A DNA stretch of 64,000 nucleotides from Kiritimatiellia bacterium (GTDB lineage: Bacteria; Verrucomicrobiota; Kiritimatiellia; WLWN01), in NCBI GenBank assembly GCA_012103575.1, contig WLWN01000001.1, forward strand, positions 1,484,538-1,548,537. The letters run 5' to 3'. This document shows, piece by piece, positions 18,079-58,001 of the stretch (position 1 is the first letter of the stretch; every line of letters begins with the position of its first letter). The position numbers were made by a program, and so were the translations under genes. Below the pieces are notes generated by a model. The model saw only the letters and a program-made list of their open reading frames with translations. It was not told the DNA's origin and ran no database searches.

Positions 18079-19191
18079 TCAAAGTTTTTTATTACCCAAA
18101 GTTTGGGTTTCACGCATTGAAATATTGATAAGAATACCGACCATCACCATGGTCATAACCAGACTCGACCCTCCAAAACTGATAAAGGGTAATGCCAACC
18201 CTTTTGTGGGCAAACTGCCCGTCACAACACCTATATTGATTGCAGCCTGAAATGTAATAATCATGGTAATGCCCATCCCTAATAACCGGGCAAACAGGTC
18301 AGAGGTATGTGTGCTAATATATAAACCACATATAAAAAACCCTAAAAATAAGGCCACCACAATCATGGAGGCTATCGGTCCTAATTCTTCGCCAATAATC
18401 GCAAATATAAAATCAGTATGCGCTTCGGGCAAATAAAAACGTTTTTGCATACTCTGTCCCAATCCAACGCCTTTAGACCCACCGATGACAAAAGCTTTGA
18501 TCGCATTTAGTAATTGGAAGGCCTCATTCTGCGCATATTTTTCAGGATTTAAAAAGGCAATGATGCGTCGTAATCGTTCAGGGCTCTCCAGAATAGCGGC
18601 TATAAAACAGATACTTCCTAATAGCGCGGATATAAAAAGATACCCAATTTGAGTACCCCCTATAAACATAATGGCCATCCCCACGACGGCGATGAGCATG
18701 GTTGTTCCAAAATCAGGTTCCACAAAGATTAAGATTAACGTAACCCCTAATCCAGCTAATGGAATAAGCAGCCCTTTTTTAAAATCCTGCGCTTTACGTC
18801 GAATATGGGACATCCACCCCGCTAACCAAATGAGGGTCGTTATTTTAGCTAGTTCAGACGGTTGAAAATTCAGAGGCCCTAATTTTAACCAACGACTGCT
18901 GCCTTTCACTTTATGGCCCACTCCTGGGATAAGGACTAAAACCAATAGCACAAAGGAAAAGATGAGTAATGGAACAGCTAGTTTTCGCAAAATAGAATAA
19001 TCTATTCGAGACACTACAACACTAGCAAGGGTCGCTAAAGCAAGCCATATTAGTTGATGCTTAAGAAAGTAATGGGGATCGTCGTATCGAATTTGACCTT
19101 GAACAGCGCTGGTACTCGCTAGCATCACAATGCCAAGGGTTATTAAAATCAGAACAATCCCAACGAGTATACTTCTGGCTTTCCACATCAT
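18079..19191 (-). CDS. ftsW: SEDS-family peptidoglycan glycosyltransferase FtsW
   Basis: 370 aa, multi-TM, conserved FtsW/RodA regions ('PSELAKI', 'EPDFGTTML', 'LPEAHTDFIFA', 'GLALPFISFGGSS'). Positioned in the dcw cluster. Confidence 0.85.
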   Translation of the reverse strand: MMWKARSILVGIVLILITLGIVMLASTSAVQGQIRYDDPHYFLKHQLIWLALATLASVVVSRIDYSILRKLAVPLLIFSFVLLVLVLIPGVGHKVKGSSRWLKLGPLNFQPSELAKITTLIWLAGWMSHIRRKAQDFKKGLLIPLAGLGVTLILIFVEPDFGTTMLIAVVGMAIMFIGGTQIGYLFISALLGSICFIAAILESPERLRRIIAFLNPEKYAQNEAFQLLNAIKAFVIGGSKGVGLGQSMQKRFYLPEAHTDFIFAIIGEELGPIASMIVVALFLGFFICGLYISTHTSDLFARLLGMGITMIITFQAAINIGVVTGSLPTKGLALPFISFGGSSLVMTMVMVGILINISMRETQTLGNKKL

Positions 19192-19273: not shown

Positions 19274-20182
19274 TTAATAATCCATCGGAGGAATTTTAAG
19301 TTTTTGGCCAGGTTTGATACTGACTTCATCCTCTATGTTATTTAGCTGAAGGATCTCTTCTTTGAGCACTGCAAAGTCTTTGGCAATACTATCGGGTGTT
19401 TCACCCTCTCTCACGGTATGTTCAAAGATTTGTTCTACAGGAGAGACGGGAGGCTCTGCAGGCGCCTCAGGTAAAACCCGGCGTTCTTCTATGACGTCCT
19501 CCAGCTGAATAATTTCTTTGACTATGGCTCTCTCTGTTGAGGGTGCAGGTTGCTTTAATGGCGCTGATTTTTTCTTGGTCCCCGGAATAAGAAGTTTTTG
19601 GCCAATTAAGATTCTGTCACCTTTTATCTGATTGGCTTCGCGCAAAGCAGGAACGGTTGTTCCATTCCGAAATGCAATTTTAGAAAGGCTATCACCCGAT
19701 TGCACAACATAGGTACTCTCTGAACCCGAAATAATAACCGGTCGTCGAGGTGTAGAAGCTCTTTTCACAGGCGCTTGGGGAACCGTTACACCCGTCGCAT
19801 AAGGGGGGAGAAGAAGTTTTTGGCCTACCCATATGTTATCAGGATTTTTAAGCTGGTTTAGATCAATCAATTCCTGTGTTGAAATATTATGACGCTTTGC
19901 GATTCGAGATAACGAATCGCCCTTTTTTATAATGTAGGTTTTAGGATTAAATTCAGGAGGGACCTCTATAGGTCGGACCGGTCTTTCCCCGGGAGGAATG
20001 AGACGGGACGACACAGGAGGTATAGAACGACGCGGATGACGTTTAGGAGGCATAACAGGAGAGGGAGGTGATTCCACAATAATGGGGCCTCTTTGTGTGC
20101 CACACCCCTGAATAAACACAAAGGCCGCTAAAGCCATCATGTGCAAAGCGACAACAATTGTTATAAGTACCGGTGCTTTCAT
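19274..20182 (-). CDS. Secreted protein with three LysM domains, no recognisable peptidase domain
   Basis: Signal peptide 'MKAPVLITIVVALHMMALAAFVF'. Three LysM-like units ('YIIKKGDSLSRIAKRHNIS', 'YVVQSGDSLSKIAFRNGTT', 'HTVREGETPDSIAKDFAV'). SD GGGAGA lies 8 nt upstream of the ATG. Confidence 0.8.
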   Translation of the reverse strand: MKAPVLITIVVALHMMALAAFVFIQGCGTQRGPIIVESPPSPVMPPKRHPRRSIPPVSSRLIPPGERPVRPIEVPPEFNPKTYIIKKGDSLSRIAKRHNISTQELIDLNQLKNPDNIWVGQKLLLPPYATGVTVPQAPVKRASTPRRPVIISGSESTYVVQSGDSLSKIAFRNGTTVPALREANQIKGDRILIGQKLLIPGTKKKSAPLKQPAPSTERAIVKEIIQLEDVIEERRVLPEAPAEPPVSPVEQIFEHTVREGETPDSIAKDFAVLKEEILQLNNIEDEVSIKPGQKLKIPPMDY

Positions 20183-20199
20183 CTTTTTTCTCCCATGGT

Positions 20200-20362
20200 C
20201 CTGGATCTGTCAGTTAAACGTGGGATTTCTGTGCGAATGCTTTGGAGGCAAAAGGTTGCAAAAAAACGCAGGCGCACCCGCTGGGTGCGTCGAGGCTTTT
20301 TTGTAATTCCTTTTGGCCCAAATGGTTCGTGCAGAAAACCGCGTTTAACTGACGGATCCAGG
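20200..20362 (+). mobile_element. MITE copy 1 (163 bp, ~45-bp imperfect terminal inverted repeats CCTGGATC(T/C)GTCAGTTAAACG..., 5-bp target-site duplication ATGGT)
   Basis: Left end 'cctggatctgtcagttaaacgtggg...', right end '...ccgcgtttaactgacggatccagg'. Flanked by ATGGT on both sides. >97% identical to copies at 53952 and 57816. Internal hairpin 'gcgcacccgctgggtgcg' bracketed by an A7 tract and a T6 tract. Sits 18 bp upstream of the LysM gene start, between murD and ftsW. Confidence 0.85.
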
Positions 20363-20405
20363 ATGGTTTGAGTGTTCAAAATATGTTTCGATATTATTTG
20401 TTTAT

Positions 20406-21746
20406 TCATTTTATCTCCACGTTTTCTAACTGATTAACAATGGTCTGAAAATGGTGACCACGCTCTTGGTAATCCGAAAACTGGTCAAAACTGGCACAGC
20501 CAGGAGAAAGCAAGATGAGTTCTCCTTCCTTCGCATCTTCCCATGCCATCCGTACAGCATTCTCTAATGTAGTACCCTGTGCACATGATATTATGTCAGA
20601 CCAAGTAGAGGTCATTTCCTTTGAGGTTTCTCCTATAAGATATACACGGATTGCGTGCTCAGCCAACATTTCTTTTACCCTTTCGAAATTTTTTTCTTTA
20701 GCTCTGCCTCCTGCTATTAATCGTATGTTTTTCCCCGCCATCTTTAACCCCGCTCTTAAAGCAGCCATGTTGGTTGATTTAGAATCGTTTATAAAACGAA
20801 CACCGTTTATATCGGCGACCTCCTCCATGCGATGAGACAATGGTTCTATGTGGCAAAGCGATTGCTCAACAACCTCACGTTTTATAGAGCAAACATCCAT
20901 TGCTGCCATGATGGCTGCGGCTGTAGGCCCCATGACATCATTATCAAAAATGCTTTCCTTCAGAACGGCTATTTCTTGTCCCTTATGAATAATGCGACCG
21001 CAGTCCCATACATAGTCTGCTTTATCGGTTCGACCAAATGTTCTCCACTGTCCCTGTCCATCTGACCCTTCAGCCAGCGATTTGCTTATTTCTTCAGGCA
21101 CAATACAAAAATCGGTTTTTTGGGTGTGAGCAAAAAAAGTGGCTTTGGTTTTCGTATAGGCCTGTATTGTTCCATGTCGATCTAAATGATTCGGGTATAT
21201 ATTTAAAAGGATCCCAATGTCCGGCCGAAACGATTGTATGGTTTCCAATTGAAACGAGCTGACTTCTAAAACGGTCCAATCTAGATGAGGCTGCTCACAA
21301 ACAACCCGGGACAAAGGAGGACCATAATTCCCTGCAAGAGACACGCGCTGACCGGCTAGAGCAAACGTTTCATAACACCCTTTAGCCGTTGTACTTTTAC
21401 CGTTTGTTCCCGTTATAGCAAAGATCTTCGAATGACTTCGAGTCCATGCCAATTCGATTTCAGAAACATAATAGATCCTGCGTTTTTTTACTTCGTGCAG
21501 CCACGGAGAATCAATGGATACACCTGGACTTACAATACAAATGTCGTATGGTTCTGGAGGAATATCGGGGGCGTTTAAGACCAGTTTGGCTCCACGTTTT
21601 TTTAAGGCTTCTAGGCATTCTAAAGAAATGGAACCTTTGCCCGCATCTAAAAGAGTCACTTTAGAACCTTCGTTTAACAGTAAATGTGCTGCAGCTTCAC
21701 CACTGAGACCTGCACCTAAAATTAATGCATGTTCGTATGTTTTCAT
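20406..21746 (-). CDS. murD: UDP-N-acetylmuramoylalanine--D-glutamate ligase
   Basis: 446 aa with 'ILGAGLSGEAAA' N-terminus and 'AITGTNGKSTT' P-loop. dcw context. Confidence 0.9.
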   Translation of the reverse strand: MKTYEHALILGAGLSGEAAAHLLLNEGSKVTLLDAGKGSISLECLEALKKRGAKLVLNAPDIPPEPYDICIVSPGVSIDSPWLHEVKKRRIYYVSEIELAWTRSHSKIFAITGTNGKSTTAKGCYETFALAGQRVSLAGNYGPPLSRVVCEQPHLDWTVLEVSSFQLETIQSFRPDIGILLNIYPNHLDRHGTIQAYTKTKATFFAHTQKTDFCIVPEEISKSLAEGSDGQGQWRTFGRTDKADYVWDCGRIIHKGQEIAVLKESIFDNDVMGPTAAAIMAAMDVCSIKREVVEQSLCHIEPLSHRMEEVADINGVRFINDSKSTNMAALRAGLKMAGKNIRLIAGGRAKEKNFERVKEMLAEHAIRVYLIGETSKEMTSTWSDIISCAQGTTLENAVRMAWEDAKEGELILLSPGCASFDQFSDYQERGHHFQTIVNQLENVEIK

Positions 21747-38949: not shown

Positions 38950-39213
38950 TTGGACGTCTATTATCGAAAAATGAAAGCCCGCTTAGGCGCCCCTAAAGCG
39001 ATTACCGCTACAGCTCACAAATTGGCTCGGATTTTCTATAAAATATGGAATGAAAGTCAAGATTTTGACCCTACTCTTTTTGAGCAGCTCAAACAGAAAG
39101 CTCGTACGCGAACTGAAACCTATGTTCGAAAAAAGGCTTATGACTTAGGGTTTGAGTTAATCCTGAATCCGTCAGCTATCGCTTCGGAAGGCGTTTTGGG
39201 GCTCAAAAGTTGA
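38950..39213 (+). mobile_element. IS110-family transposase, C-terminal fragment only
   Basis: 'YRKMKARLGAPKAITATAHKLARIFYKIW' matches the conserved C-terminus of IS110/IS1111 transposases. The roughly 300 upstream residues are absent. A strong hairpin 'AAAGTGGGGGGCGGAGCCGCCTCCCACTTT' lies at 38851-38880. Confidence 0.6.
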
Positions 39214-39378
39214 AAACTTTTTCCTTGAGATGCTCGCTTTTGGGCGGATTGGGACCGGCAAGTATCACCCTGATGAATTTTTTGAGCGTACAGGTCAGAC
39301 TCACTCTGATTTGGCCATTTTGGGGCGTAGGCCTCCTTGGGCAGTCGCCTTAGAGTATTGTTAAAGGTGCACGGAGGG

Positions 39379-40820
39379 CTATGCGAAGGAATGGGCAATA
39401 TCTTGTATCACTTCAAACCAGCGATAACGCTTGCCAAAGTGAAGTTCAATTCGTCCGGCGTGGCGGACCAATCGAACCGCGCAATAAACGATATTTTTGA
39501 GAACCGTTTTGATTCGCCAGCACGGGATGTTGATTTTCTGCGGGGCAAGCCCAGCCCGTTTGATGACCTCTTGGCCAAGACCGCGCAATAGGTTGAAGGC
39601 CACCATGGCGCATAACAGAATAATCTTATTGGCACAGGGTCTCCCCGAAGGCAATCGCTCAACATCAAGATCGCTTTTGAGTTCACTGTGGTACTGCTCG
39701 CTGGGGCCATGTCCATGATAGAGATCTAGCACCGTCTTGGCACGACAAGAGAGGTTCGTCCACCAGGTGTTCACCTCAAGTTTAGGAACCAGAAGTTTCT
39801 GACCATCGATATCGATGGTGCGTTCAATCACTTCGAAGGCCACCGGGACACAAGGGCGGTTTTGGTCACCACCGGGATGGAAATGATCGAAAAAGCCTGT
39901 GTAAACGTTCTTGCCTTCACGACTGTCTTGTTTGTCTCCAACTCGGCGTGCAAGGGCCAGCATTTGTTCAGGACATTCGCGGCGAGGATTTCGCTTTACG
40001 ATAAAATAATGATCCCCAAAAGCGTCGAAGTTATCGGCCGCAGCGTTGCCACTATCAAGCCGAAGCAAACATTTTCCACCTAGGCCCAGGGTTTGGAGCG
40101 TTTCAACGCTGCGGGCAATAAACGCGGTCGTTCCCGACTGACAATGTTGTTTACCGGGTCGAAGTTCGCACTCAAGCATGTGGCCTTGAGTGCCCACATA
40201 GGCAAATATCGGGGCGTAACCATCATGGCCCTTCTAGGTGTAGGAAACGCCTTCTTTCGAAGAGCCTGAGTGATCCAAAGGGCTCACATCGATATCGACG
40301 GGAACAAGATCAAGCCCTTCGACATCTACCTAGCCAAAGGGGCCCAAGGAAAGAAGTTCGGTGTTGAGTTTGCGTAGCCCCACATGGGTTCTGGCTGGGG
40401 GCAGGTCGTCGAAACGACGTCGGAACACCGGCTCAGAGGCTACCCTTTTTAACTCCCCTTTTTAAGTCCAAAGGCATTCATAAAAATCTCATCACCCCGG
40501 TACAGGTCGATATCATTGAAATCGGTTCGACCGTTGCAAAGTAAGCCGATCTGGGTAAGGAGGATCTCCCGATCAGAGATCGCATCGGAGCGGCGTGGTT
40601 GAAAATTGGAGGGAAGAATCCGTTGAGCATGATCCTCAAGCAGCAGGCCGCAAAGATGATTTCCGCTTGTGCTGTTGAGTTCGCCCTTGCCAGTCTTTAT
40701 TTTATATTGTTTCATATACACACCTGTTGGGGTGGGGTTGTTTGTTTGAATACGGGTATGCTCCCCGCTTTAGCCCAACAGGTAATGAAAAATTATCAGA
40801 TTTTATCTGACGGATTCAGG
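39379..40820 (-). mobile_element. Degraded IS1380-family insertion sequence; transposase broken into at least three pieces
   Basis: 272-aa ORF 39379-40197 ('RLDSGNAAADNFDAFGDHYFIVKR', 'DLYHGHGPSEQYHSELKSD...ANKIILLCAMVAFNLLRGLG') resembles the ISEcp1-type DDE transposase middle and C-terminus. In-frame TAG at 40234-40236. N-terminal fragment ORF 40449-40721 ('LCNGRTDFNDIDLYRGDEIFMNAFGL'). Terminal IR 'CCTGAATCCGTCAGATAAAA' reads inward from 40820 and matches the MITE terminus CCTGGATCCGTCAG. Confidence 0.7.
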
Positions 40821-40984
40821 TTAATCACTAAACTGGCTGTTCCCTAAAAAGGTTTCTTAGGAGGATAAAGCTCTAACGCACCTCACACCGCTACTACCAA
40901 CGCTTGTAAACACCTAAAATTCAGTTTCACATTTCATGGATAAATAGATATGTTATCGCTCGCAAATGCGTATAGTTTAGTGAA

Positions 40985-53925: not shown

Positions 53926-53951
53926 CCATCCACCTACTAAGTAGAATAAAA

Positions 53952-54114
53952 CCTGGATCCGTAAGTTAAACGTAGGATTTCTGTGCGAATGCTTTGGAGG
54001 CAAAAGGTTGCAAAAAAACGCAGGCGCACCCGCTGGGTGCGTCGAGGCTTTTTTGTAATTCCTTTTGGCCCAAATGGTTCGTGCAGAACACCGCGTTTAA
54101 CTGACGGATCCAGG
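53952..54114 (+). mobile_element. MITE copy 2 (TSD TAAAA)
   Basis: Same 163-bp element, flanked by TAAAA on both sides. Lies between convergent glnE and menE. Confidence 0.85.
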
Positions 54115-54260
54115 TAAAACACATATAACAAAAACTCTGCAGAAGCATCCGATTCCGACTTTTTATTACACAACTGATAATTTTTCGGACTATGAAAACT
54201 CGACATCTGAGTCAAATAATCATTGATGATGTGTTAGTGGACGTTCGTTAAAGTCACTTA

Positions 54261-57668: not shown

Positions 57669-57815
57669 TAACGGTATTTGGCGATCGAATGTCCTCGACT
57701 TTTCCGAAAGTTGATGTACATTTTTATCATGTTAAAAATTTTAACCCATATAGCGTGTCTTATTAACAGGGTTATTAACAGAAAAAGCAAGAAGAGTCCG
57801 TTGAAGACTTCTTCT

Positions 57816-57976
57816 TGGATCCGTCAGTTAAACGTGGGATTTCTGTGCAAATGCTTTGGAGGCAAAAGGTTGCAAAAAAACGCAGGCGCACCCGCTGGGT
57901 GCGTCGAGGCTTTTTTGTAATTCCTTTTGACCCAAATGGTTCGTGCAGAAAACCGCGTTTAACTGACGGATCCAGG
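57816..57976 (+). mobile_element. MITE copy 3 (TSD TTCTT)
   Basis: Same element with the left terminus mutated to CTTGGATCC. Flanked by TTCTT on both sides. Sits in the divergent menA/exonuclease promoter region. Confidence 0.85.
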
Positions 57977-58001
57977 TTCTTATAAGCTTTCTCTTGGGTT
58001 A

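What the first reader, a model, noticed from the sequence alone, without database searches (positions are those of the whole stretch)
20200..20362. Active MITE family: three near-identical 163-bp copies with 5-bp target-site duplications, one inside the dcw operon
Copies at 20200-20362, 53952-54114 and 57816-57976 share about 45-bp imperfect terminal inverted repeats (CCTGGATC[T/C]GTCAGTTAAACG...). They are >97% identical and are flanked by different 5-bp direct duplications (ATGGT, TAAAA, TTCTT), the signature of recent transposition. Each carries an internal GC hairpin (GCGCACCCgctGGGTGCG) bracketed by A7 and T6 tracts, a bidirectional-terminator-like module. Copy 1 is inserted 18 bp upstream of the LysM gene start, between murD and ftsW, where it could attenuate read-through into ftsW. 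Six-frame ORFs inside the copies are artefacts.
Basis: seen in the sequence. Interest (0 to 1): 0.75.

Follow-up and report, generated by a model that had tools for sequence, protein, structure and literature searches.

The report
New MITE family with its parent IS1380
The three 163-bp repeats are real copies of a small non-autonomous transposon (MITE) that spread through the genome of an uncultivated sponge symbiont, and the insertion sequence that most likely moved it lies in the same window; this is an ordinary kind of element, though this family has not been described.

Summary
Three 163-bp copies lie at 20200-20362, 53952-54114 and 57814-57976. They are 96-98% identical, homology stops exactly at their ends, and each is flanked by a different perfect 5-bp duplication.

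Pooling related contigs gave 42 distinct insertion sites, all from Mycale hentscheli sponge metagenomes. Thirty have perfect 5-bp duplications, 12 copies equal the consensus, and the target consensus is symmetric and AT-rich (A-C|WWNWW|G-T). The host is a Kiritimatiellae symbiont, probably 'Ca. Patea custodiens'.

It is a 1659-bp IS1380-family element at 39162-40820 with a 5-bp duplication (TTAAT). Its termini, CCTGAATCCGTCAG, match the MITE termini at 13 of 14 bases. Nothing beyond those 14 bases is shared.

"Active" is not shown. No empty site was seen in any assembly. All three IS copies that span the site carry the same frame-breaking 13-bp duplication. No full-length transposase closer than 76% identity was found.

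The central hairpin with flanking A and T runs looks like a terminator. However, copies sit in either orientation inside tight operons (dcw, S10 ribosomal), so strong polarity is unlikely.

This is a new member of a known kind, of modest interest.

The parts
20200..20362 (+). MITE copy 1 (163 bp), between murD and the LysM gene in the dcw cluster; 1 difference from the family consensus
   Evidence: TSD ATGGT at 20195-20199 and 20363-20367
53952..54114 (+). MITE copy 2 (163 bp), between the convergent 3' ends of glnE (+) and an AMP-binding/menE-like gene (-)
   Evidence: TSD TAAAA at 53947-53951 and 54115-54119
57814..57976 (+). MITE copy 3 (163 bp; first bases CT instead of CC), between the divergent 5' ends of the UbiA/menA-like gene (-) and the RNase T gene (+)
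   Evidence: TSD TTCTT at 57809-57813 and 57977-57981
39162..40820 (-). Full-length IS1380-family insertion sequence (1659 bp), the probable mobiliser. Its 14-nt perfect terminal inverted repeat CCTGAATCCGTCAG matches the MITE ends at 13 of 14 bases. The transposase gene is disrupted here by a 13-bp duplication plus one extra G, and by an in-frame stop
   Evidence: TSD TTAAT at 39157-39161 and 40821-40825; the 98.6% identical copy L032:7016-8673 scores 234 bits on NCBIfam NF033539 transpos_IS1380
20271..20291 (.). Central GC hairpin of copy 1, bracketed by A7 and T6; terminator-like on both strands
   Evidence: core hairpin -17.8 kcal/mol abutting U6 in the + orientation, -13.4 kcal/mol abutting U7 in the - orientation
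20179..20409 (-). 76-aa ORF that runs through the whole of copy 1 in frame, overlapping the murD stop and the LysM start by ATGA; most likely an artefact of the element's open frame
   Evidence: no Pfam hit; offset-1 frame open on both strands; same internal peptide with different ends at other copies
20406..21746 (-). murD, upstream neighbour of copy 1
   Evidence: Mur_ligase_M, Mur_ligase_C
19274..20182 (-). LysM-repeat gene, downstream neighbour of copy 1; its Shine-Dalgarno is left intact by the insertion
18079..19191 (-). ftsW (FtsW/RodA/SpoVE family), next gene downstream

Best explanation
[quoted passage not shown] Each is 163 bp, non-coding and almost a perfect palindrome. The family lives in the roughly 3.1-Mb genome of a Kiritimatiellae symbiont of the sponge Mycale hentscheli, probably 'Ca. 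Patea custodiens'. The elements were most likely moved in trans by the DDE transposase of an IS1380-family insertion sequence that is itself highly expanded in this genome and has one full-length copy in the window. Shown: the two element types share the outermost 14 bp at 13 of 14 positions, the same 5-bp duplication length and similar copy-to-copy divergence. Inferred: the transposase binds those terminal repeats, makes cuts staggered by 5 bp at a symmetric AT-rich target (A-C|WWNWW|G-T), and gap repair creates the duplication. The MITE body is unrelated to the IS interior, so it is not a simple internal-deletion derivative of this IS. The family expanded in a recent burst from one master sequence. 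It now appears fixed and may no longer be mobile, because all three IS copies that span the site carry the same frameshifting 13-bp duplication. Effects on neighbouring genes are side effects. When transcribed, the element forms a long hairpin and a terminator-like core, which could modulate read-through or mRNA processing. Its presence in both orientations inside essential operons argues that any polar effect is weak.
For: Structure and duplications. Family size and duplications: 42 distinct sites, of which 30 have perfect 5-bp duplications, 1 an apparent 6-bp and 3 match at 4 of 5. Recent burst: 12 of 42 copies equal the consensus and mean divergence from it is 1.1%. Symmetric AT-rich target. 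Cognate IS: the window copy at 39162-40820 has TTAAT duplicated on both sides and termini CCTGAATCCGTCAG, against CCTGGATCCGTCAG for the MITE. IS1380 family assignment: NF033539 at 234 bits against a 180-bit cut-off, plus PF13701. IS expansion: at least 162 distinct ORF fragments on the 3,096,896-bp contig, and many contigs end inside the IS. IS copies differ from each other by about 1.4%, similar to the MITE copies. Host: the proteins are named 'Kiritimatiellae bacterium', locus tags GKR87_*; every contig that matched the MITE core is from an M. hentscheli assembly; the organism is described in PMC7157528 and PMC7196800. No coding capacity: no Pfam hit. Hairpin.
Against: One terminal base differs (G in the MITE, A in the IS at position 5). 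Nothing beyond 14 nt is shared (z no higher than 1.7), so an unseen IS variant with exactly matching ends could be the true partner. No functional transposase was found. The same 13-bp duplication breaks the frame in all three IS copies that span the site. The longest ORF is 365 aa, against 440 aa in intact relatives, which are at most 76% identical. None of the 56 cluster members read, of which 30 are listed with lengths, is full length. Thirteen of 44 flank pairs lack a perfect duplication. Three of these match at 4 of 5, and at least three are hybrids of the flanks of other copies, from chimeric assembly or recombination. No polymorphic or empty site was seen. Transposition was not observed directly.
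Confidence: 0.85

Rival explanations
1. The MITE is mobilised by a different, unsampled autonomous element whose ends match CCTGGATCCGTCAGTTAAACG exactly. This could be another IS1380-family subgroup or another family. The IS in the window would then be only a relative with similar tips.
For: Only 13 of 14 terminal bases match, and the next 7 conserved MITE bases (TTAAACG) are absent from the IS. Only about 0.4 Mb of a 3.1-Mb genome was inspected. All three IS copies spanning the site have broken transposase genes.
Against: No other element with these tips appeared in any locus examined. The IS shares the duplication length, is highly expanded in the same genome and has similar copy-to-copy divergence.
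Confidence: 0.1
2. The element is a Tn3-derived inverted-repeat miniature element (TIME). These also make 5-bp AT-rich duplications.
For: It has a 5-bp duplication and an AT-rich target preference, as described for TIMEs (PMC4133298).
Against: From my own knowledge, Tn3-family terminal repeats are about 38-40 bp and begin with GGGG. This element begins with CCTGG and has a 21-nt perfect repeat. No Tn3-family transposase was seen in any locus. An IS1380-family element with matching tips and the same duplication length is present.
Confidence: 0.02
3. The element has been domesticated as a regulatory module that the host keeps for tuning operon expression. It could act as a bidirectional intrinsic terminator or attenuator, or as an RNase III processing site. 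This can hold in addition to its origin as a MITE.
For: The core hairpin directly abuts a U run in both orientations (-17.8 and -13.4 kcal/mol). The whole element folds into a 70-pair hairpin. Precedents exist in Correia elements (RNase III), ERIC and SPRITE (review PMC10969869). The insertions look fixed across specimens.
Against: There is no orientation bias relative to transcription: 9 antisense against 5 sense in co-directional gene pairs. Copies occur between divergent, convergent and co-directional genes alike. The copies are too young for conservation to show selection (1.1% divergence). The 6 to 1 excess of G-U pairs on one strand is not significant. Fixation is expected anyway in a bottlenecked symbiont.
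Confidence: 0.1
4. The repeats are not mobile. They would be remnants of a segmental duplication or an assembly artefact.
For: Short-read contigs frequently break or join wrongly at the element.
Against: Homology ends exactly at the element tips, with unrelated flanks. Thirty different perfect 5-bp duplications were found. The same insertions occur in independent assemblies from two laboratories, WLW* and JAAHT*.
Confidence: 0.01

Closest known systems
Chunjie MITE of Geobacter uraniireducens Rf4 (Chen et al. 2008, cited in PMC10969869)
   Same: Both are recently expanded bacterial MITEs of similar size, with conserved terminal repeats and direct duplications. Both have dozens of mostly intergenic copies, and one copy inserted inside an operon apparently without destroying it. 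Both have partial or deleted derivatives.
   Different: The sequence, host phylum and presumed parent IS are different. The element here is a near-perfect palindrome with a terminator-like core. Operon integrity was not tested here.
Correia elements (NEMIS) of Neisseria
   Same: Both are MITEs of about 100-160 bp with many copies close to genes. Both are transcribed as part of mRNAs and fold into long hairpins through their terminal repeats. Correia hairpins are RNase III substrates.
   Different: From my own knowledge, Correia elements duplicate TA and no cognate transposase is known. Here the duplication is 5 bp and a cognate IS1380-family element is present. No processing data exist for this element.
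IS1380 family insertion sequences (e.g. IS1380, ISEcp1, IS1678)
   Same: The partner IS has a single DDE transposase that matches NF033539 and PF13701, a length of 1659 bp, short terminal repeats beginning with CC, and a 5-bp duplication. From my own knowledge of the ISfinder definition, these are the family's features.
   Different: It is only 27-38% identical to plasmid-borne named members. The closest relatives (76% or less) are unnamed metagenomic sequences, plus a Spartobacteria MAG at 69%. The copies here carry a frame-breaking 13-bp duplication. The review I checked (PMC10969869) does not mention IS1380 at all, and the other papers sampled from 21 that hold both 'IS1380' and 'MITE' show no such link.
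[quoted passage not shown]
   Same: Like SPRITE, this is a small repeat carrying a terminator-like stem-loop. Like RPEs, it is a palindromic element of about 150 bp with an open reading frame on both strands.
   Different: All 42 insertions here are intergenic. The one ORF-internal call is an ORF running through two adjacent MITE copies, and no in-frame insertion into a real gene was seen. Unlike RPEs, clear terminal repeats, duplications and a partner IS are present.
QMITE1/QMITE2 of Coxiella burnetii (PMC5896051)
   Same: Both are MITE families of about 50 copies in a host-associated bacterium. Both encode spurious basic peptides and overlap annotated ORFs.
   Different: QMITE1 is 300-400 bp with 2-3-nt duplications. 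QMITE2 has 7-11-nt duplications and a GTAG REP. The sequences are unrelated.

Membership tests
MITE (miniature inverted-repeat transposable element) | Small size (about 50-500 bp) with no transposase gene | tested here: met
   The element is 163 bp. The only ORFs are 54-codon read-throughs with no Pfam match.
MITE (miniature inverted-repeat transposable element) | Terminal inverted repeats | tested here: met
   The consensus has a 21-nt perfect inverted repeat that is imperfect beyond.
MITE (miniature inverted-repeat transposable element) | Target-site duplications of fixed length and variable sequence | tested here: met
   Three of three copies in the window, and 30 of 44 flank pairs overall, have perfect 5-bp duplications of differing sequence.
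MITE (miniature inverted-repeat transposable element) | Multiple dispersed, homogeneous copies | tested here: met
   At least 42 distinct sites were found, with a mean of 1.1% divergence from the consensus.
MITE (miniature inverted-repeat transposable element) | A related autonomous element with matching termini in the same genome | tested here: met
   The IS1380-family element at window 39162-40820 matches at 13 of 14 terminal bases and has the same duplication length.
MITE (miniature inverted-repeat transposable element) | Demonstrated mobility (polymorphic insertion, empty site or experimental transposition) | tested here: not met
   No empty or polymorphic site was seen in any of the M. 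hentscheli assemblies examined. Experimental transposition cannot be tested with these tools.
IS1380 family (for the partner IS at 39162-40820) | DDE transposase of the IS1380 type | tested here: met
   NF033539 scores 234 bits against a 180-bit cut-off on the L032 copy, which is 98.6% identical to the window copy. PF13701 also matches.
IS1380 family (for the partner IS at 39162-40820) | Length about 1.5-2 kb, short terminal repeats starting with CC, 4-5-bp duplication (ISfinder definition, from my own knowledge) | tested here: met
   The element is 1659 bp with a 14-nt perfect repeat CCTGAATCCGTCAG and the duplication TTAAT.
IS1380 family (for the partner IS at 39162-40820) | A single intact transposase ORF of about 440 aa | tested here: not met
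   A 13-bp duplication splits the gene into 88-aa and 365-aa ORFs. The window copy has an extra G and a stop codon as well. No intact copy was found.
Intrinsic (rho-independent) terminator, for the MITE core | GC-rich stem-loop immediately followed by a U tract | tested here: inconclusive
   The strong 7-9-bp stem is separated from the U run by 5-6 nt. A 2-bp lower stem across an internal loop brings the hairpin up to the U run. The element passes the scan tool's loose criteria on both strands.
Intrinsic (rho-independent) terminator, for the MITE core | Transcripts end at the site | not testable with these tools
   This needs RNA 3'-end mapping. Indirectly, copies lie in both orientations inside tight co-directional gene pairs, including rplW-rplB and murD-LysM-ftsW.
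Tn3-derived TIME | Terminal repeats of about 38-40 bp of the Tn3 type (GGGG... tip) | tested here: not met
   The tip is CCTGGATCC and the perfect repeat is 21 nt.

The most novel reading that the evidence does not exclude
The IS1380-family element may still be active despite its split transposase gene, either through recoding or transcriptional slippage at the duplicated TTAAAAAGG motif, or as a two-piece enzyme. In that case it would keep spreading a palindromic, terminator-bearing MITE that the symbiont tolerates, or even exploits, as a movable attenuator or RNase III site inside essential operons (dcw, S10 ribosomal, rpsI-argJ). That would be a case of a mobile element rewiring operon expression during the early genome erosion of a chemically defensive sponge symbiont.
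Probability: 0.08. Interest if true: 0.55.

Novelty: new member of a known kind. Interest (0 to 1): 0.3.

Why it matters
MITE and IS blooms are a hallmark of bacteria that have recently become host-restricted. Documenting one in the pateamine-producing Kiritimatiellae symbiont has several uses.

- It dates and characterises an early stage of genome erosion in this lineage.
- It explains why short-read assemblies of this genome fragment, join wrongly and are mis-binned at these repeats, which matters for recovering its biosynthetic gene clusters.
- It flags dozens of spurious 'hypothetical proteins' in the public annotation.
- It pairs a MITE with an IS1380-family element, with a defined symmetric target consensus that can be tested experimentally.

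It does not open a new class of mechanism.

Tried and rejected
1. My first scan of the GTDB genome collection used an 18-nt tip pattern with only 16 specified bases. This was my error, and genome-wide copy counts across species were lost as a result.

2. Coxiella as host, with QMITE1/2 identity, was rejected. Sizes and duplication lengths differ, and the host turned out to be Kiritimatiellae.

3. Orientation bias looked promising in the first 13 copies: 6 to 1 in co-directional gene pairs. With 42 copies it is 9 to 5, which is not significant, so I rejected it.

4. Selection for RNA structure on one strand was not supported. There are 6 G-U pairs on the + strand against 1 on the - strand, which is not significant.

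5. The MITE is not an internal-deletion derivative of the IS. Beyond 14 nt there is no similarity (z between 0.3 and 1.7).

6. Transfer of the MITE between symbionts was rejected. The one contig labelled 'Gammaproteobacteria MH1_Bin6' encodes proteins that sit on the 3.1-Mb Kiritimatiellae contig, so it was mis-binned.

7. The search for an intact transposase failed. The best full-length relatives are 76% identical or less, and the only long cluster member (551 aa) is a fusion with an IS630-type transposase.

8. Three of the context look-ups (P0009, P0026, P0032) found nothing on record.

9. Rfam gave no match anywhere in the window at gathering thresholds.

10. ISEcp1 as a close relative was not supported. 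Plasmid-borne IS1380 members are 38% identical or less, and ISEcp1 was not among the hits listed.

Full report
**Observation**

Reading the three sites directly and aligning them with 20 nt of flank shows three 163-bp elements: 20200-20362, 53952-54114 and 57814-57976.
- Pairwise identity is 96.3-97.5%.
- Similarity ends exactly at the tips and the flanks are unrelated.
- Each copy is bounded by a perfect 5-bp direct duplication of a different sequence: ATGGT, TAAAA and TTCTT.
- The 18-nt terminal motif occurs six times in the window, once at each end of each copy, against 0.03 expected.

The consensus has a 21-nt perfect terminal inverted repeat, CCTGGATCCGTCAGTTAAACG. Beyond it the two halves remain imperfectly complementary, so the whole element is a near-palindrome.
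- As RNA it folds into a single hairpin of about 70 pairs: -105 kcal/mol (z -13.4) for the + strand and -80 kcal/mol (z -10.9) for the - strand.
- The central GC stem, bracketed by A7 and T6, is flagged terminator-like on both strands.
- Rfam has no match anywhere in the window.

**Context in the window**

- Copy 1 lies between murD (20406-21746, -) and a gene with three LysM domains (19274-20182, -), which is followed by ftsW (18079-19191, -). It sits 17 nt upstream of the LysM ATG. The duplicated ACCAT abuts an intact GGGAGA Shine-Dalgarno.
- Copy 2 lies between the convergent 3' ends of glnE and an AMP-binding (menE-like) gene.
- Copy 3 lies between the divergent 5' ends of a UbiA/menA-like gene and an RNase T gene.
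- A 76-aa ORF (20179-20409, -) runs through copy 1 in frame, because 163 + 5 = 168 nt is 56 codons and the offset-1 frame of the element is open on both strands. It has no Pfam match.

**Host and family size**

I searched the translated read-through frames as 'proteins' and found 11 clusters.
- All come from Mycale hentscheli sponge metagenome assemblies.
- Several lie on a 3,096,896-bp contig whose proteins are named 'Kiritimatiellae bacterium' (GKR87_*).
- The cluster representatives share the same internal peptide but have different ends, as expected for spurious ORFs.
- The LysM protein look-up shows the same dcw locus, with the element, in independent assemblies. A trans-AT polyketide synthase lies a few kb beyond ftsW.
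- The two genome papers place the pateamine producer 'Ca. Patea custodiens' in the Kiritimatiellaeota (PMC7157528, PMC7196800). Neither mentions these repeats.

Every one is from the M. hentscheli WGS sets WLWD/E/F/G/I or JAAHTG/H. Pooling all loci gave 42 distinct insertion sites.
- Of 44 flank pairs scored, 30 have perfect 5-bp duplications, one has an apparent 6-bp duplication and three match at 4 of 5.
- At least three of those without a duplication are hybrids of flanks that belong to two other copies. For example, L040 joins the left flank of window copy 3 to the right flank of the L047 copy. This indicates chimeric assembly or recombination between copies.
- Twelve of 42 copies are identical to the consensus, and the mean distance from it is 1.1%. 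This is the star-like pattern of a recent burst from one master sequence.
- The reconstructed empty sites give a symmetric consensus: A at -2, C at -1, an AT-rich pentamer (83-93% A+T at four of its five positions, against 56% background), then G and T. Symmetric target recognition of this kind fits a transposase complex.
- All insertions are intergenic and often lie within 2-30 nt of a gene end. The single ORF-internal call is an ORF running through two adjacent MITE copies.

**The partner IS**

Pfam marks on genes near other copies pointed to PF13701, and NCBIfam confirmed an IS1380-family transposase at 234 bits against a 180-bit cut-off.
- The element in L032 (7016-8673) is bounded by CCTGAATCCGTCAG and its complement.
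- A 98.6% identical full-length copy lies in the window at 39162-40820 on the - strand. It is flanked by a perfect 5-bp duplication, TTAAT. A weak 19-nt hit of the MITE tip at 40802-40820 had been the first sign of it.
- The IS and the MITE therefore share 13 of 14 terminal bases at the exact tips and the same duplication length.
- Beyond position 14 there is no significant similarity, so the MITE is not a simple internal-deletion derivative of this IS.
- The IS is highly expanded. Two protein clusters with 146 and 16 distinct members all lie on the 3.1-Mb contig, and many short-read contigs end inside the IS.
- IS copies differ by about 1.4%, comparable to the MITE copies.

**Is the family active?**

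Intact relatives of the transposase are single 440-aa ORFs, but the best is only 76% identical and comes from other metagenomes.
- In all three IS copies that span the site there is a 13-bp tandem duplication, TTAAAAAGGGGAG, where relatives read GL(K/T)(N/S)VASEP. It shifts the frame after codon 88.
- The window copy has an additional G and an in-frame stop.
- The longest ORF seen is 365 aa.
- The only long cluster member (551 aa) is a fusion with an IS630-type transposase.
- No assembly shows an empty site for window copies 1-3. Contigs either contain the element or break inside it.

The data therefore support a recent expansion but not current activity. I cannot exclude an intact copy elsewhere in the genome, or rescue of the split gene.

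**Effect on neighbouring genes**

In the + orientation the core hairpin (-17.8 kcal/mol, including a 2-bp lower stem across an internal loop) directly abuts U6. In the - orientation a weaker hairpin (-13.4 kcal/mol) abuts U7. 'Bidirectional terminator-like' is a fair description, but the structure is not canonical.

Three points argue against strong polarity.
- Copies lie inside tight co-directional gene pairs in both orientations, 9 antisense and 5 sense.
- These include rplW-rplB in the S10 ribosomal-protein operon and rpsI-argJ, as well as murD-LysM-ftsW.
- An early impression of orientation bias (6 to 1) disappeared with more copies.

No sigma-70-like promoter was found inside the element. 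Attenuation or RNase III processing, as shown for Correia elements, remains possible but is untested.

**Comparison and novelty**

Every structural criterion of a MITE is met. Only direct evidence of mobility is missing.
- The partner meets the IS1380-family criteria except for an intact ORF.
- A Tn3-derived TIME also makes 5-bp AT-rich duplications, but it is excluded by the tip sequence.
- The closest analogue in behaviour is Chunjie of Geobacter, a recently expanded MITE inserted into an operon. Correia, SPRITE, RPE and QMITE elements share individual features.
- The one contig labelled Gammaproteobacteria that carries the element is a mis-binned Kiritimatiellae contig. There is therefore no evidence of spread between symbionts.
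- Neither genome paper mentions the family, and the MITE literature I sampled shows no MITE linked to IS1380.

It is a new member of a known kind, and an expected feature of a recently host-restricted symbiont with an IS bloom.

**Verdict**

The main additions are the cognate IS1380-family element in the same window, the host identity, the family-wide duplication and target statistics, and the caveat that the transposase source appears dead. Interest is modest (0.3).

Noticed in passing
window 39162-40820 (IS position about 360-390); L032:7016-8673; L028:10502-11801: All three IS1380-family copies that span the site carry the same 13-bp tandem duplication (TTAAAAAGGGGAG). It splits the transposase gene into 88-aa and 365-aa ORFs. 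The IS seems to have multiplied to well over 100 copies after acquiring this lesion, or the lesion is bypassed in some way.
   Followed up: partly
window below about 14900, - strand (seen as L024:15303 onward): A very large trans-AT polyketide synthase gene (more than 3500 aa, many PKS domains) starts about 3 kb beyond ftsW. Before it come DUF697, AMP-binding, short-chain dehydrogenase and 88-aa genes. This is one of the symbiont's polyketide clusters, sitting right next to the dcw cluster.
   Followed up: no
window 20363-20409 plus 20179-20199: Removing copy 1 and one duplication leaves a 20-codon ORF (MNKQIISKHILNTQTMGEKR). Its ATG overlaps the murD stop and its TGA overlaps the LysM ATG, both as ATGA. 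It may be chance or a small coupling ORF. Its conservation in relatives was not checked.
   Followed up: no
L031:1912-1995 (same as L032:10030-10113): An 84-bp internal-deletion derivative of the MITE: the right half is joined to the last 9 nt of the left tip. It still has a perfect 5-bp duplication (TGGGA).
   Followed up: partly
L035: about 1209-1303: A degenerate, shorter relative of the MITE lies 150 nt from a full copy. Recognisable arm sequence is present (GTTAAAGGTGGGATTTCTGTGCGAATGCTTTG ... GTGTTTAACTACTGGATCC) but the central GC hairpin is missing. It suggests an older or ancestral subfamily.
   Followed up: no
L040:1146-1308; L074:2181-2343; L072:3998-4160: These MITE copies have left and right flanks that belong to two different insertions bearing normal duplications (for example window copy 3 on the left and the L047 copy on the right). 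They are either chimeric joins in short-read assemblies or real recombination between copies.
   Followed up: partly
L060:10184-10346 (same as L028:3358-3520) and L053:8876-9038: In two copies the flanking pentamers are reverse complements of each other (TCTGA / TCAGA) rather than direct repeats. They differ only at the central base of a TCWGA palindrome. In L060 the wider flanks are also inverted repeats, so the insertion may have hit the centre of a pre-existing hairpin.
   Followed up: no
L023 (JAALKB010000137.1, 'Gammaproteobacteria bacterium MH1_Bin6'): This GTDB-listed contig starts inside a MITE copy, and its proteins are identical to NKB25556-NKB25558 of the Kiritimatiellae 3.1-Mb contig. 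It is therefore a mis-binned contig in a public MAG.
   Followed up: yes
L040:1-399; L038:680-1076; L037:7793-8017; L035:1-131: A second repeated sequence, 93-98% identical between loci and often at contig ends, is unrelated to the MITE and to the IS1380-family element. It is probably another repeat or IS family. IS630-, ISL3- and IS3-type transposase fragments are also nearby (L032, L037).
   Followed up: no
P0001-P0011; e.g. GKR87_16450: Gene callers and the public annotation list MITE read-through ORFs (43-93 aa, basic) as hypothetical proteins. These are very likely annotation artefacts.
   Followed up: partly
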